From positions 1 to 64,000 of the forward strand of contig NW_020846333.1 of the NCBI RefSeq assembly GCF_003704095.1: a stretch of DNA of 64,000 bases, in the 5' to 3' direction. Positions 12,001 through 64,000 of this stretch are shown here, one piece after another. This stretch comes from Pocillopora damicornis. Taxonomy: Eukaryota. Positions within the stretch are counted from its first letter, which is position 1, and each line of letters starts with the position of its first letter. The position numbers were made by a program.

Positions 12001-15000
12001 TCATACAGCGTTTGAAATTTTCCATCTTGATACCCTTCTTTGCCAAACTTGTATAAGAATGTTCCTGACTGATCAAAAGCTTTTATGCGGTGGTGGCCTG
12101 CATCAGTTACGAGAAACATGTTTTTGTAAGGAATGCAGCAGGTTGGCCATAAAAGTTTCTCTGGGCCTTTGTCTCCAAATGTGANNNNNNNNNNNNNNNN
12201 NNNNNNNNNNNNNNNNNNNNNNNNNNNNNNNNNNNNNNNNNNNNNNNNNNNNNNNNNNNNNNNNNNNNNNNNNNNNNNNNNNNNTTCTAATTTTTCTCGT
12301 TTTATTATCTGCAACAAAACCTGGGACTATTTTTCAAATCAGTTTAAAGCTAACACTTCAGCTTAGTTAGAAAATCAATAAGCACCTATAATTATGACAT
12401 AATTACCCAGTAGATGCCCATTATTAGAAACAGTTGTCACCTTATTTCTTGTGCTTGTTTATTACTCATACATGTGAAATTATGCAATCGTAAATTGTTC
12501 TTGAATTAAAGCTTACTTAAAGATATATTTTCTTAGATTGAAAAACCTGCACTTAATCTGTCCTGACCAATCAGTGATTGCCAAAAGCAGCACATGGTCT
12601 TAACGTGTTCTACTTATATATTCTCAGCCTATAAAATAGTCGAAGTCGTTGAATGTTTATATACAGCATGTAGTTTTTCTGTTACACTACATATTTTTGA
12701 GGATTCTCTCTCAATTTCTTACTTTAGATTATTCAAATCGCTGTCGACGATGCACAGAAATACCTTGACCTTAAAAAAAAAACCAAATAAAACTTCAGAT
12801 CAGAGAAATAGCTATTAAAGAGGATATTAATAAACCAAGAAGAAACATGGATGGCCAAGTGACGACGGATGGAGAAGATTAAAGCGGCTTGAACTACTTC
12901 AAGTCAAAAGGTTTTTGTCTCCAAGTGTAATTGTAAGTCTTGATATTATCTAAGAGTTCTTCCAGACAAATGATAAAACAGTATTAAAAGTAAAACAAAA
13001 CACAGGTAAGGAGTGGTTTAAGAAGCAAAGTTCACTTTTGAAAGAGTCTATTTCAAAATGTACACTTTTTTCTGATCATGGCTAGTAACAAGAATACGCC
13101 CGTCTGGTGCTTTTGTTATCGCCATAGGCTTAGATAATCGAGTGATACTTTTGCCGGTGAAGCGACCGTCTAAAGAAAACTTTTGAACTCGGTAATTGTC
13201 AGTGTCACATACTAGAAGATTATTGGAGCTGTCTACAAGTAAACCACGCGGCAAGTTAAATTGTCCATCTTGATTCCCTTTTTTGCCAAACTTGTATAAG
13301 AATGTTCCTGACTGATCAAAAGCTTTTATGCAGTGCTTTTCTTTATCAGATACGAGAAACATGTTTTTGTGAAGAACGCAGCAGCTTGGACCATGAAGTT
13401 TCTCTGGACCTTTGTCTCCAAATGTGAAAATAGACTCTCCTTCCTTTGACATTACCTGTATCCTATTATTTTCTCTCTCGGTTACAATAATACGCTCTAC
13501 ATCATCCACAGTAACGTCTACTGGATTACCTAACTCTCCTTTCTCTTTACCGAATTTTCCAAAACTTTTCACCACAGTTCCTGTCTGAATATTAAGTCGT
13601 TGTATTCTGCAATTCCCTAGGTCTGCAATTAGGACTTCGTTGTCATTAAAAAACGAAATGCCACGAGGGTACTGAAACTGTCCTGTATTGCTACCCTCGC
13701 CTCCAGTTTTTCTCAAACAGTTGCCATCTTTATCAAAAACATAAACACAGTGGCCAAAGTTATCTGTCACAACTATCTGGCCTTCTGTATTCACAGCAAT
13801 GCCATATAACCGTTCAAACTTGTCCCCTGGAAAGAGCTTTAACTTCAACTCACTGATCACAAAAAGTTCACGTTCTTTAACCTGCACAGTCATGGGACAG
13901 GTCGGTAGTTTATCGCCATTAATCTTCACTTCAATGTTGTAGGCCCCTGGTACTTTGGGAGTAAACTTCAACCTAAGATTGCCATTTTCTTTCTCTTCAA
14001 CAATCACGTCTGTAATATCCTTGACNNNNNNNNNNNNNNNNNNNNNNNNNNNNNNNNNNNNNNNNNNNNNNNNNNNNNNNNNNNNNNNNNNNNNNNNNNN
14101 NNNNNNNNNNNNNNNNNNNNNNNNNTTCCGATGCCCCGAGTGTCAGGCAGAAATCGATTTACCACAAGGAAATTGCTTCGACCGCTTGCCTAGCAGCTTT
14201 TTCCACAAAAGTCTGTTAGGTGTCCTTCTTGAAGCGGAAGATTGCGAAGCCATTGCGAGTCAACAACTGGACACTTGCTCGCAACATACGGAAGAAAGAG
14301 TACGATATTACTGCTCCTCGTGTGAAGCGTGTATTTGTCCGATTTGCGTCACCGAAGACCACCGAGGCCATGCGTTTGAAATGCTTGAAAAAGCAATGCA
14401 AGAGGATAAGAAAAACATTATGTCGACTGTCGAGACCATCAAGGAAAAGGTAAACTTGTTTCGAGCACAGTTAGAAAAAACATCAGAGGATGTGGAAATG
14501 ATTATTGCAATCGCTAAACAGGAAGTGTCGGAGGCAACTGAAGACGTGATCACAAAGACGAGACAGCAAGAAAAACAGCTCTTAGAGTCCTTAGAATAGA
14601 ACGAATGCCACACGTAAAAAAAGAATAGAACGAATCAACTCGGCTAAACAAGAACTGGAATCTCTAATAAAAAAAATTAACCAAGCAGCTGAATTTGCGG
14701 AGAGTCTGGTGCAACGAAGATCAGCTGTGGATATCATACAGAACAAAAACAAATTGAGGCAGAAACTTGAAGAGCTTCGTAGAGTTGAAGTTCCAAAACA
14801 TCGCCAGGCTACATTTGTCAAATTTACTGCCGCATCGCAACACAACTTTAAACTGGGTTCTATTCAGGTCTCCGAGAAGCCGGCAATCGCAGCTAAATCA
14901 ACTCTAGAAGGACTGGATCAAACTTTTCAAGTTGGTGTAGAAGCAAAGTTTACGTTGTGCCCACGGACATCTGGCGAGAGATGAGTGACCACGCTGATCT

Positions 15001-63000: not shown

Positions 63001-64000
63001 AGACGGGCGTATTCTTGTTACTAGCCATGATCAGAAAAAAGTGTACATTTTGAAATAGACTTTTTCAAAAGTGAACTTTGCTTCTTGAGCCGCTGCTTAC
63101 CGGTGGTTTGTTTTATTTTTAATGCTGTTTTATCACTTGTCAGGAAGAACTCTTAGCGATAATATCTAGACTTACAATTACTCTTAGAGACAAAAACCTT
63201 TTGACTTGAAGTAATCAGCCCAGGTCTTGCAAGTTCGTCAATCTTGAGCCGTTTTAATCTTCTCCATCCCTCGCCTCTTGCCCATCCATGTATCTTAATT
63301 GATTGGTCAGGATAGATTAAGTGCGGGTATTTCAATCTAAGAAAATCTATCTTTAATGAAGCATTAATTCAAGAACAATTTATGATTGCATAATCTCACA
63401 TGTTTTTTAAAATGGGCATCTACTAGGTAATTATGTCATAGTTAGAGGTGGCTACTGACTTTCCAATTAAGCTTATTTGTTAGTTCTAAACTGTTTTGAA
63501 AAATAGTCTTGCGTTTTATTCCATACTACAAAGCGAGACAAATTAGGAATGCATTGAATAAGTAAGACTTAAAAGTTATTTTCTGTTTGTTGTAATGAAT
63601 GATTAGAAAATAAGTTTCAGTGTTAAATATAAATAACATTTTGCAATAAAGTTATTTAAAAAATTCACTCGGAAACATCCTTTCAAAAATTTCAAAATCA
63701 TCAGTACCTTGGTTTCACTGGAAAATAAAAAAAGGTTATGTCCAGTTTATTTATACTTTTAAAAAAATTGGCTATCAGGAATGTAGCATTTTTTTCATCT
63801 CTTTAGATGTTTTGAGATGTGAAAGCTTTAAGTCACTTTCTGAAGCCTTTTCTATAGGCAGGTAAAATTTTTAATTGCTTTGGCAAGCTAAAAAGGAACT
63901 AAAATAACAAAACAAACCAACAACAACAAGCAAAAACAAAAAATAAATAAATGTGCCTAAATGTATTATCCATAAACATTTATTTACAGGGGCTACATCT

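What the first reader, a model, noticed from the sequence alone, without database searches (positions are those of the whole stretch)
13048..63058. Mosaic sharing of NHL blocks between paralogs (gene conversion or unequal crossover)
Short variant blocks are shared across otherwise different copies and across classes. KFGKE(K/N)G(E/K)LxNPV appears in 13048, 35265, the 52478 pseudogene and 61512. GEFDRPIDV appears in 15468, 29420 and 58120. KLCRPTCCIP is in 35265 (class B) and 58120 (class A). CMRKIGSKRS is in 14126 and 20619. KLLWP is in 11859, 15468 and 47807. GQFNLPRGL is in 13048 and 58120. This points to blade-level shuffling that builds new binding surfaces, possibly with pseudogenes as donors (inference).
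[Added by the scan's program, not by the reader: the finding's places include an assembly gap (unread letters, written N; its length is only estimated) at 14026 to 14125, 15368 to 15467, 17168 to 17267, 25695 to 25794, 28500 to 29181, 29320 to 29419. Whether the letters on both sides are continuous or in frame is not known: test that first.]
Basis: partly seen in the sequence, partly recalled or inferred. Interest (0 to 1): 0.65.

Follow-up and report, generated by a model that had tools for sequence, protein, structure and literature searches.

The report
Coral TRIM-NHL gene array, module swapping
This is a tandem array of about twenty intronless coral TRIM-NHL ubiquitin-ligase genes and gene fragments whose copies have exchanged sequence, mostly by swapping whole front and back halves and only modestly blade by blade, which is a familiar way for such gene arrays to evolve.

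Summary
At the DNA level they are unequal evidence. One is a solid shared block. Three are short exact tracts of 40-57 nt that are only suggestive. Two are single-codon coincidences written with different codons.

The window is a fragmented scaffold with 17 gaps. It carries about 20 intronless RING/B-box/coiled-coil/filamin/NHL genes and fragments of a pocilloporid-like coral.

The strongest mosaic is between domains. Classes A and B differ about five-fold more at synonymous sites in the B-box/coiled coil (dS 1.19 against 0.25). From about aa 368 onward, through the filamin end and the NHL propeller, they cannot be told apart. Database relatives of window genes show the same front/back reassortment.

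Inside the propeller the tree is star-like. Blade segments still disagree more than chance, also at third codon positions. No single conversion tract or recombinant triplet survives multiple-test correction.

No pseudogene donor can be named. Positive selection on the loops was not shown: dN/dS is 0.63. Assembly chimeras cannot be fully excluded.

Verdict: real paralog exchange, a new member of a known kind, of moderate interest.

The parts
5950..6266 (+). class-B fragment (aa 177-281), a 317-nt contig between two gaps
   Evidence: tblastn; gaps; its left edge shares 54 nt exactly with 48333
6367..7291 (-). class-B N-terminal part (aa 1-303), cut by a gap
8255..9000 (+). class-A N-terminal part (aa 1-248), cut by a gap; 97% (240/248) identical to the front of database protein P0033
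11859..12184 (-). NHL fragment (aa 551-657) with a 14-nt gap against the reference and an early stop; holds KLLWP; its last 54 nt are identical to gene 47807
13048..14025 (-). filamin end plus NHL (aa 351-675). Class-B-type until about 13970, then class-A/61512-type from about 13948. Carries the KFGKE block and GQFNLPRGL
   Evidence: 96.9% identical to P0033
14126..15367 (+). class-A pseudogene piece (aa 51-462) read in three frames; a 29-nt tandem duplication lies at 14593-14654; ends with CMRKIGSKRS at the contig edge
15468..17167 (-). class-A piece (aa 50-614), open frame, cut by gaps at both ends
   Evidence: 97.2% identical to P0014
20619..22646 (+). intact class-A gene (675 aa; RING, one B-box, coiled coil, filamin, NHL); the coordinate reference in this report
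   Evidence: 99.0% identical to P0001 in all segments
22627..24259 (.). 3' flank of gene 20619, one arm of an inverted repeat with 25795-27400. Identity is 87% next to the stop codons and 94-97% further out
25795..27400 (.). 3' flank of gene 27381, the other arm of the inverted repeat
27381..28499 (-). class-B-type filamin/NHL piece (aa 304-675 in class-A numbering), cut by the 682-N gap
   Evidence: 99.5% identical to P0148
29182..29319 (-). 138-nt contig with a class-B B-box fragment (aa 131-176); not shown to belong to gene 27381
29420..30800 (+). class-B piece from aa 279 to the stop
   Evidence: 94.6% identical to P0135
33878..35627 (+). class-B pseudogene with a 137-nt internal deletion, a frame shift and a stop at 35288-35290. 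It carries the KFGKE block and KLCRPTCCIP at the contig edge
40485..41431 (+). degenerate pseudogene (about 52% aa identity, several frames)
43597..45624 (+). intact class-A gene (675 aa)
   Evidence: 99.4% identical to P0034
46316..46704 (+). class-B 5' fragment, 94% identical to 47828-48191
47807..50017 (+). intact class-B gene (736 aa, two B-boxes). The class-specific sequence ends near 49090, which is aa 368 in class-A numbering
   Evidence: 95.0% identical to P0121
52478..54560 (+). class-A pseudogene with four frame changes, an in-frame stop and a 30-nt tandem duplication at 53536-53602; carries the KFGKE block
56796..56916 (+). start of a class-A gene (aa 1-40), cut by a gap
58120..60144 (+). 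intact class-A gene (674 aa)
   Evidence: 97.2% identical to P0021
61512..63058 (+). class-A piece (aa 160-675) with the KFGKE block; 100% identical to P0110 over 514 aa
62549..62587 (+). KFGKE-type block in the loop between blades 2 and 3; the other three copies are at 13519-13557(-), 35442-35480(+) and 54049-54087(+)

Best explanation
WHAT IT IS. The window is part of a tandem array, in both orientations, of single-exon TRIM-NHL E3-ligase genes of a pocilloporid-like stony coral. The domain order is RING, one or two B-boxes, coiled coil, filamin, six NHL blades.

HOW THE ARRAY GREW (shown). It grew by tandem duplication with gene death. Four copies are intact, at least five are pseudogenes, and the rest are cut by gaps. 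Within-class dS of about 0.25 along the whole gene and a star-like tree point to a burst of duplication.

EXCHANGE BETWEEN COPIES (shown). Copies have exchanged sequence by homologous recombination between misaligned paralogs. The dominant unit of exchange is the module: the RBCC front against the filamin-end/NHL back.
- The class-B genes here are a chimeric lineage, with an old two-B-box RBCC joined to a class-A-type back half near aa 368.
- Later swaps have junctions at about aa 305, about aa 362, and somewhere in aa 346-437.

INFERRED. Whether each swap was an unequal crossover, which gives front/back chimeras, or a gene conversion, which gives internal patches.

INSIDE THE PROPELLER. There is a weaker, older layer of short-tract exchange below about 60 nt. 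The clearest trace is the 34-nt KFGKE block in the loop between blades 2 and 3. This is supported statistically, but single events are not resolved.

FUNCTION (inferred from homology with TRIM2/3/32/71). The variable residues sit in the inter-blade loop windows, so the array probably encodes ligases with one kind of catalytic front and varied substrate-recognition propellers.
For: ARCHITECTURE. Pfam finds RING, B-box, Filamin and NHL above their cut-offs. The nearest solved NHL domains are Thin, TRIM71, TRIM3, TRIM2 and Brat.

ORGANISM. The named relatives are Stylophora pistillata, Pocillopora damicornis and P. verrucosa.

DOMAIN-LEVEL MOSAIC IN THE WINDOW.
- A-B nucleotide identity is 50-65% in the B-box/coiled coil. 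From reference nt of about 1365 it equals the within-class identity.
- NG86 dS in the B-box/coiled coil is 1.19 for A-B against 0.24-0.25 within class, at the same dN/dS of 0.28-0.32. In the NHL part dS is 0.252 for A-B against 0.262 and 0.287.
- The last class-B-only sites are at nt 1104.
- Copy 13048 switches type within a single contig between nt 1106 and 1128.
- The KFGKE block (8 of 8 exclusive sites within 34 nt) occurs with both classes.

INSIDE THE NHL PART, 8 gap-free copies.
- PHI p=0.0002, and 0.0014 without the block. Site compatibility is raised only below 60 nt.
- ILD p<=0.0005, and 0.007 without the block.
- ILD at third positions p=0.0005, and 0.0095 without the block.
- dlnL is 40.2 against a simulated 12.3+-3.2, maximum 22.2, reached by 0 of 60.
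- 21 of 36 AU tests of a segment against another tree give p<0.05, several of them reciprocally.

FLANKS. The 3' flanks of 20619 and 27381 are 94-97% identical while their NHL coding parts are 84% identical.

FAMILY LEVEL.
- NHL domains of distant class-B proteins form one side of a branch (support 99), apart from an A plus close-B clade (support 99).
- Using only clusters of at least 5 members, class needs 7 changes on the NHL tree, at least 3 of them forced. AU rejects one clade of close-B NHLs: dlnL 146, p=1.9e-11.
- P0033 (A front) is 97.8% identical to P0124 (B front) in the NHL part.
- P0110 (identical to window gene 61512 over 514 aa) follows P0038 over aa 1-437 and P0105 from about aa 346.
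- P0034 (99.4% identical to window gene 43597) against P0063 is 88% identical in aa 1-362 and 98.4% in aa 363-675.

AGAINST A CHIMERA OF THIS ASSEMBLY ALONE. All 9 window copies tested have a database match at 94.6-100% overall. Of the 64 copy-segment identities computed, 60 are at least 0.93; the four lower ones are 0.87 and 0.92 for 47807, 0.86 for 15468 and 0.90 for 29420.
Against: - No single exchange inside the NHL part is individually significant. The best pairwise run has p=0.0007 against a Bonferroni threshold of 0.00066, so 0 of 76 pairs pass. The best triplet has p=6.9e-5 against 3.2e-5, so 0 of 1556 pass.
- After removing the block and thinning to one site per non-adjacent codon, PHI falls to p=0.089. 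Third positions without the block give p=0.06.
- The NHL tree is star-like, with supports of 38-72. 74 biallelic informative sites give 53 different splits. Much of the motif sharing can therefore be retained ancestral states or repeated hits at a few hypervariable codons.
- The scaffold is poor. It has 17 gaps, and contigs end where paralogs share 54 nt. The two halves of a P0033-like gene lie on opposite strands.
- At the family level, 8 of the 10 class-A partners in near-identical A/B NHL pairs are singleton clusters. With clusters of at least 5 members, only 1 of 325 A x B pairs stays at 0.90 or above. Many database 'recombinants' may therefore be assembly chimeras.
- The database proteins are unnamed and may mix species, alleles and paralogs.
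- Noel et al. 2023 (PMC10236652, passages) state that gene conversion is very rare in coral tandem duplicates.
Confidence: 0.65

Rival explanations
1. One old chimera and nothing more. A single ancient event joined a class-B RBCC to a class-A back half, and the array then duplicated in a burst. Inside the NHL propeller there has been no exchange. On this view the shared motifs are retained ancestral states or repeated substitutions at a few hypervariable codons on a star-like tree.
For: The tree is star-like, with supports of 38-72. 53 splits come from 74 informative sites. Two motifs are single-codon coincidences with different codons. No tract or triplet survives correction. PHI loses significance after thinning, p=0.089.
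Against: The KFGKE block and the 5' class show all four combinations, which needs at least a second exchange. ILD and the dlnL test reject one topology for all blade segments, also without the block and at third positions. AU rejects one clade for close-B NHLs, p=1.9e-11. Window-linked genes show front/back swaps among multi-member clusters.
Confidence: 0.2
2. Assembly artefact. The mosaics come from short-read assembly of near-identical paralogs, through graph path switches at shared k-mers, gap closing or polishing with mis-mapped reads. This would hold both in this scaffold and in the database contigs.
For: There are 17 gaps. Scaffold orientation is inconsistent for the P0033-like halves. 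Most database A/B near-identical NHL pairs involve singleton clusters, and their junctions fall beside the most conserved stretches.
Against: Tracts shorter than the apparent k-1 of 54 nt, such as the 34-nt block, cannot arise from a path switch at a shared node; this is reasoning from how de Bruijn graphs work. Inside the NHL part only 3 aligned exact runs reach 54 nt. All 9 window copies tested are matched at 94.6-100% overall by other database proteins, most of them representatives of multi-member clusters, with 60 of 64 copy-segment identities at 0.93 or above. The class A/B dS contrast lies within single long contigs.
Confidence: 0.1
3. Convergent selection. The same loop variants arose repeatedly because only a few residue combinations work on the propeller surface. 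This would mimic local linkage without any DNA exchange.
For: Variable codons cluster in the inter-blade loops. Most changes in the KFGKE block are non-synonymous. The signal decays within 60 nt, the size of a loop.
Against: Eight linked nucleotide differences, including a three-base codon change, are very unlikely to arise twice. Incongruence is also significant at third codon positions, p=0.0005, or 0.0095 without the block. Loop dN/dS is 0.63, and 3 of 28 pairs have dN>dS.
Confidence: 0.05

Closest known systems
TRIM-NHL proteins (class VII TRIMs / Marin's subfamily C: TRIM2, TRIM3, TRIM32/Thin, TRIM71/LIN-41, Brat)
   Same: The domain order is the same: RING, B-box, coiled coil, filamin, six NHL blades. 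The nearest solved NHL domains are Thin 6d69 (E 5e-52), TRIM71, TRIM3, TRIM2 and Brat. The subfamily table was seen in passages of PMC3503706.
   Different: By my recollection, from no call, those are few and conserved developmental regulators. Here the genes are single-exon, present in about 20 copies within 64 kb, with many pseudogenes and variable inter-blade loops.
finTRIM genes of teleost fish (van der Aa et al. 2009, PMC2657112; passages read)
   Same: A large, lineage-specific TRIM family diversified by duplication. Its C-terminal recognition domain is variable in its loops. GARD found recombination breakpoints in both the RING/B-box part and the C-terminal domain.
   Different: The variable domain there is B30.2, not NHL. 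Site-level positive selection was shown there. Here window-level dN/dS stays below 1, and site models were not run.
Chimeric fusion genes made by unequal crossing-over in tandem arrays (beta-globin HBD/HBB; PMC4041002, search listing and start of abstract only)
   Same: The front of one paralog is joined to the back of a neighbour, repeatedly.
   Different: That is a two-gene system with short genes. Here there are many copies, two deeply diverged front types, and a junction inside the filamin domain.
Tandemly duplicated gene arrays of stony corals (Noel et al. 2023, PMC10236652; passages)
   Same: Birth-and-death tandem arrays kept in clusters in Pocillopora and Porites, linked there to recognition and innate immunity.
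   Different: That paper states that gene conversion is very rare in coral tandem duplicates, and its main text does not mention TRIM, NHL, B-box or RING. This array shows exchange, although not homogenisation.
Plant NLR resistance-gene clusters (recalled, from no call)
   Same: Paralogs in clusters exchange blocks of the repeat domain and form chimeras.
   Different: An unrelated protein family and kingdom. This is a resemblance only.

Membership tests
TRIM-NHL (class VII TRIM) | N-terminal RING finger | tested here: met
   PF00097 scores 33-35 bits against a cut-off of 21; PF13445 scores 33-37 against 25.2
TRIM-NHL (class VII TRIM) | one or two B-boxes | tested here: met
   PF00643 gives 37.8 bits and 1 stretch in class A, and 47.9 bits and 2 stretches in class B
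TRIM-NHL (class VII TRIM) | coiled coil after the B-box | tested here: inconclusive
   PML_CC and TRIM_CC match class B only, below their curated cut-offs: 18.4 against 23 and 17.5 against 30. The structure prediction did not finish
TRIM-NHL (class VII TRIM) | filamin/Ig domain followed by a six-bladed NHL propeller | tested here: met
   Filamin scores 40-41 bits against 26.9. NHL scores 93-98 bits with 3-4 stretches. Six repeats are visible in the alignment. The closest solved domains are NHL propellers
TRIM-NHL (class VII TRIM) | E3 ubiquitin-ligase activity | not testable with these tools
   needs biochemistry
Paralog exchange (gene conversion / unequal crossover) in a tandem family | different parts of the gene have different histories, beyond chance | tested here: met
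   dS contrast; PHI; ILD; dlnL against 60 simulations; AU on the family tree
Paralog exchange (gene conversion / unequal crossover) in a tandem family | the signal is also present at synonymous or third-position sites | tested here: met
   ILD at third positions p=0.0005, or 0.0095 without the block. PHI at third positions p<=0.0005 with the block but 0.06 without it
Paralog exchange (gene conversion / unequal crossover) in a tandem family | individually significant tracts or recombinant triplets (GENECONV / 3SEQ style) | tested here: not met
   0 of 76 pairs and 0 of 1556 ordered triplets pass Bonferroni. These were my own re-implementations, not the published programs
Paralog exchange (gene conversion / unequal crossover) in a tandem family | mosaics hold in long-read haplotypes | not testable with these tools
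   Only an indirect check was possible: all 9 window copies tested have 94.6-100% overall matches among database proteins
Templated diversification from pseudogene donors (chicken-Ig style; recalled) | directional copying from pseudogenes into an expressed acceptor gene | tested here: inconclusive
   Pseudogenes 33878 and 52478 share the block and a 49-nt exact run. No test here gives direction, and the same loop type is common in intact relatives
Positively selected recognition domain (TRIM5 / finTRIM type) | dN/dS above 1 in the variable loops | tested here: not met
   Loop windows give 0.63, with 3 of 28 pairs having dN>dS; the rest of the NHL part gives 0.48. Site models were not run

The most novel reading that the evidence does not exclude
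The array is an actively recombining mix-and-match repertoire. RBCC fronts, NHL backs and blocks of blades are re-assorted among neighbouring paralogs, pseudogenes included, at a preferred junction in the filamin domain. Individual corals would then carry different sets of E3-ligase specificities, for example for viruses, microbes or symbionts. The many singleton 'recombinant' proteins in public data would then be real rare haplotypes rather than assembly chimeras.
Probability: 0.2. Interest if true: 0.7.

Novelty: new member of a known kind. Interest (0 to 1): 0.45.

Why it matters
Corals have no adaptive immunity and are known to hold large tandem arrays of recognition genes. The one genome-wide study I could read holds that gene conversion hardly occurs in them (PMC10236652, passages).

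This locus shows that in at least one intronless TRIM-NHL array the catalytic front and the recognition propeller have been re-paired several times. That is a cheap way to make new ligase specificities.

It also carries a practical warning. The gaps in this scaffold sit where paralogs are identical, so short-read assemblies both hide and can fake such events.

I found no paper that joins TRIM-NHL with gene conversion: searches returned 0 papers, and searches listed nothing on it. NHL-repeat and B-box expansions in corals are mentioned only in passing (PMC11639872, PMC7783167; passages).

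Tried and rejected
- GENECONV-like run test and 3SEQ-like triplet test, both my own implementations: there is an excess of small p values but nothing passes correction. 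I therefore name no single conversion event inside the NHL part.
- One search was the first version of the run test and failed with a script error. It was rerun.
- Near-identical self-matches: apart from three short pieces at 93-94% and the 3' flank pair, no long near-identical tracts are assembled. The longest aligned exact run between two copies is 82 nt. Recent large conversions are thus not seen, but they would be collapsed into gaps.
- LD decay in 66 non-redundant relatives (r2 from 0.15 to 0.03, p<=0.0005), and the 10 and 66 near-identical A/B NHL pairs among 2691: I down-weighted both after seeing that most partners are singleton clusters.
- Loop-2 type against class in the database used a one-residue rule (GEL against GEF), which is too crude to lean on.
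Support for each architecture therefore rests on the member counts printed.
No structure was used, and the placing of variable residues on the propeller face stays an inference.
- Pfam on five non-TRIM ORFs gave 0 families.
- Pseudogenes as donors was considered and left open, because no directional evidence exists.
- Not checked: the closed collections metagenome contigs and viral contigs. Genome contigs holds only bacteria and archaea, so it was not used. Supplementary tables of PMC10236652, PMC7783167 and PMC11639872, which list expanded orthogroups, could not be read and may name this family.
- The contig is coral-like, not human, and the genes are single-exon, so no spliced model was needed.

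Full report
WHAT THE WINDOW IS

The 64-kb window has 38% G+C and 17 runs of N. Stop-to-stop ORFs and a tblastn map with two full copies show about 20 copies and fragments of one gene family on both strands.

Four copies are intact single ORFs: 20619-22646, 43597-45624 and 58120-60144 (class A, 674-675 aa, one B-box), and 47807-50017 (class B, 736 aa, two B-boxes). Pfam finds RING, B-box, Filamin and NHL above the curated cut-offs. The nearest solved NHL domains are Drosophila Thin, TRIM71, TRIM3, TRIM2 and Brat.

A protein search gives 1312 relatives at E<=1e-10 among 8000 scored candidates. Among the 120 listed, the named ones are from Stylophora pistillata, Pocillopora damicornis and P. verrucosa. 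The contig is therefore from a pocilloporid-like stony coral, not human. The genes have no introns, so no spliced model was needed.

THE GAPS, TESTED FIRST

- Gaps 14026-14125, 15368-15467 and 29320-29419 each separate gene pieces on opposite strands, so the letters on the two sides are not one reading frame.
- Gap 17168-17267 removes aa 1-49 of gene 15468, and no RING start follows it.
- Gap 25695-25794 is intergenic.
- Gap 28500-29181 lies between two class-B pieces on the same strand. The 138-nt piece is 91% (42/46) identical to P0148, while the C-terminal piece is 99.5% identical to it. One gene across this gap is not shown.

Four of 34 contig edges share exactly 54 nt with another paralog, three of them with gene 47807. 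This is what contigs of a de Bruijn graph with k near 55 look like when they stop at a shared node; that reading is my inference. The gaps therefore sit where paralogs are identical.

At least five copies are pseudogenes:
- 14126, read in three frames, with a 29-nt tandem duplication at 14593-14654.
- 33878/35265, with a 137-nt deletion and a stop at 35288-35290.
- 52478, with frame changes, an in-frame stop and a 30-nt duplication.
- 40485, which is degenerate.
- 11859, with an early stop.

THE SIX MOTIFS

All six are present in exactly the copies named. On the DNA they fall into three groups.

Solid. KFGKE..GEL.NPV: eight nucleotides are shared only by 13048, 33878, 52478 and 61512. All eight lie within reference nt 1522-1555, and this group has no exclusive site elsewhere in about 1 kb.

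Suggestive.
- KLCRPTCCIP is a 40-nt exact run between 33878 and 58120 (p=0.0047).
- KLLWP is a 54-nt exact run between 11859 and 47807 (p=0.001). After it, 11859 follows 58120 for 46 nt.
- CMRKIGSKRS: 14126 and 20619 differ at 1 of 57 nt.
The first two end at contig edges. None of the three passes correction for 76 pairs.

Trivial.
- GEFDRPIDV is one G/D site, and 29420 writes it with three other synonymous codons.
- GQFNLPRGL is one hypervariable codon, CTG in one copy and TTG in the other.

THE LARGEST MOSAIC IS BETWEEN DOMAINS

Between classes A and B, nucleotide identity is 82-88% in the RING, 50-65% in the B-box/coiled coil and 70-79% in the linker. From about reference nt 1365 it equals the identity within classes, about 85%.

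Nei-Gojobori dS shows the same pattern at silent sites:
- B-box/coiled coil: A-B 1.19, against 0.24 (A-A) and 0.25 (B-B), at the same dN/dS of 0.28-0.32.
- NHL: A-B 0.252, against 0.262 and 0.287.

An equal dN/dS with a five-fold higher dS means an older origin, not faster protein evolution. The last sites private to class B are at nt 1104, which is aa 368, inside the filamin domain. Copy 13048 changes from B-type to A/61512-type between nt 1106 and 1128 within one contig.

The KFGKE block occurs with A fronts (52478, 61512) and with B-type upstream sequence (13048, 33878). Its absence likewise occurs with both. All four combinations therefore exist, each on at least two contigs. That needs at least two exchange events.

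INSIDE THE PROPELLER

The ML tree of nine copies is star-like, with long tips and supports of 38-72. 74 biallelic informative sites give 53 different splits. Much sharing is therefore noise on a star tree. Four tests on the eight gap-free copies still reject a single history.

1. PHI gives p=0.0002, and 0.0014 without the block. Compatibility is raised only for sites less than 60 nt apart. After thinning to one site per non-adjacent codon p=0.089, and third positions without the block give p=0.06.
2. Exhaustive-parsimony ILD over six blade-sized segments is 32 against 20.5+-2.6 (p<=0.0005), and p=0.007 without the block. Third positions alone give p=0.0005, or 0.0095 without the block.
3. Separate ML topologies per segment beat one shared topology with free branch lengths by 40.2 lnL units. 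In 60 simulations under the shared-topology model the gain was 12.3+-3.2, with a maximum of 22.2.
4. 21 of 36 AU tests of a segment against the tree of another segment or the joint tree give p<0.05, uncorrected. Several are reciprocal. The joint tree itself is rejected by 1 of 6 segments.

Against this, 0 of 76 pairs and 0 of 1556 ordered triplets (best exact p=6.9e-5 against 3.2e-5) are individually significant. My reading is that short, old tracts have been blurred by later substitutions.

FLANKS

The 3' flanks are homologous among copies at 62-86% identity. The tail-to-tail pair 20619/27381 is the exception. It is 87% identical beside the stop codons and 94-97% identical from about 400 nt downstream to the contig edge, while the NHL coding parts of the two genes are 84% identical. 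This is a further change of history along the repeat unit, and it lies outside the coding part.

RELATIVES ELSEWHERE

Class-B-type RBCC regions are widespread. Named hits come from Stylophora pistillata, Pocillopora meandrina and Oculina patagonica at 65-72% identity.

The NHL domains of these distant B proteins are 55-67% identical to every NHL in the window. NHL domains of class A and of close B proteins are 72-82% identical to them. On an NHL tree of 74 rows the distant-B NHLs form one side of a branch (support 99). A and close-B NHLs form the other clade (support 99) and are interleaved within it. The class-B genes of this array are thus a chimeric lineage: an old B front with an A-type back.

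Of 2691 A x close-B pairs, 10 have NHL identity of at least 0.95 and 66 of at least 0.90, at 0.42-0.53 identity in the middle region. In ten disjoint pairs the change point falls at aa 369-381 (8 pairs) or aa 305-314 (2 pairs).

There is a caution. Eight of those ten A partners are singleton clusters. With clusters of at least 5 members (25 A, 13 B), only 1 of 325 pairs stays at 0.90 or above: P0033/P0124, at 0.978. Many database 'recombinants' may therefore be assembly chimeras.

What survives the restriction to multi-member clusters:
- The class label needs 7 changes on the NHL tree (at least 3 forced), and AU rejects one clade of close-B NHLs, with dlnL 146 and p=1.9e-11.
- Among 300 A x A pairs, 3 have a middle region at 0.95 or above with NHL at 0.82 or below, and 6 show the reverse pattern of NHL at 0.95 or above with a middle region at 0.88 or below.
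- Three cases touch window genes:
  - P0033 has an A front, to which window piece 8255-8998 is 97% identical. It has the back of B-type P0124, and window copy 13048 is 96.9% identical to P0033 over its back part.
  - P0110 is 100% identical to window gene 61512 over 514 aa. It follows P0038 over aa 1-437 and P0105 from about aa 346 to the end.
  - P0034 is 99.4% identical to window gene 43597. Against P0063 it is 88% identical in aa 1-362 and 98.4% in aa 363-675.

All 9 window copies tested have a database match at 94.6-100% overall identity. Of the 64 copy-segment identities computed, 60 are at least 0.93; the four lower ones are 0.87 and 0.92 for 47807, 0.86 for 15468 and 0.90 for 29420. This speaks against chimeras peculiar to this assembly.

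SELECTION

Codons with four or more residues among nine copies cluster in the loops between blades. Window-level dN/dS is 0.63 in the loop windows (3 of 28 pairs have dN>dS) and 0.48 in the rest of the NHL part. Positive selection is thus not shown at this resolution. That these loops form the binding face is inferred from what is known of NHL propellers, because the structure job did not finish.

HOW IT MOST LIKELY WORKS

Shown: tandem duplication with gene death, and at least two (at the family level at least three) re-pairings of RBCC fronts with filamin-end/NHL backs.

Inferred:
- Unequal crossover between misaligned neighbours makes the front/back chimeras.
- Conversion tracts stop where A-B similarity stops, near aa 368.
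- Short conversion tracts inside the propeller moved loop blocks such as KFGKE.
- The products are ligases with similar catalytic fronts and varied recognition propellers.

COMPARISON WITH WHAT IS KNOWN

The proteins are members of the TRIM-NHL class by domain content.

As an evolving system, the closest described case I could read is the fish finTRIM family. There GARD found breakpoints in both the RING/B-box part and the variable B30.2 domain (PMC2657112, passages). Front/back chimeras by unequal crossing-over are classic in globin arrays (PMC4041002, listing only).

Coral tandem arrays are described as birth-and-death families in which gene conversion is very rare (PMC10236652, passages). 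That paper's main text does not mention TRIM, NHL, B-box or RING. NHL-repeat and B-box expansions in corals, and an NHL gene with Ka/Ks>1, are noted in passing (PMC11639872 and PMC7783167, passages).

Two searches for TRIM-NHL with gene conversion, and for NHL repeat with coral, tripartite motif and expansion, returned 0 papers. Supplementary tables were closed.

VERDICT

This is a new member of a known kind, of moderate interest. The main uncertainty is the quality of the short-read assemblies, both here and behind the database proteins.

Noticed in passing
window 5950, 12184, 29420, 61512 (contig edges): Four contig edges share exactly 54 nt with another paralog, three of them with gene 47807. 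The gaps therefore sit where paralogs are identical, and longer identical tracts may be hidden in them.
   Followed up: partly
window 22627-24259 and 25795-27400: The 3' flanks of genes 20619 and 27381 form an inverted repeat. Identity rises from 87% beside the stop codons to 94-97% further out, although the two NHL coding parts are 84% identical.
   Followed up: partly
window 8255-9000 (+) and 13048-14025 (-): These two pieces are each about 97% identical to the two halves of one database protein (P0033), yet they lie on opposite strands with another contig between them. This suggests a scaffolding error or two separate genes.
   Followed up: partly
window 14593-14654 and 53536-53602: Tandem duplications of 29 nt (2.1 copies) and 30 nt (2.2 copies) lie inside copies 14126 and 52478. 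The 29-nt one lies where the reading frame of 14126 first changes.
   Followed up: partly
window 46316-46704 and 47828-48191: A 5' fragment of a class-B gene lies 1.1 kb upstream of the intact class-B gene and is 94% identical to its start. It is a recent partial tandem duplicate.
   Followed up: no
whole window: All intact copies are single ORFs without introns. By my recollection, from no call, bilaterian TRIM-NHL genes have introns. The family may descend from a retrocopy that was then duplicated in tandem.
   Followed up: no
RING region, reference nt 1-240 of each copy (e.g. 20619-20858, 47807-48046): Between classes the RING is far less diverged (dS 0.415, 82-88% nt identity) than the B-box/coiled coil next to it (dS 1.19). 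The 5' end may therefore have been exchanged between classes as well.
   Followed up: no
window 38214-38678, 32098-32430, 23995-24333, 4997-5323, 41171-41521: Five ORFs of 108-154 aa outside the TRIM genes have no Pfam match at E<=0.01.
   Followed up: partly
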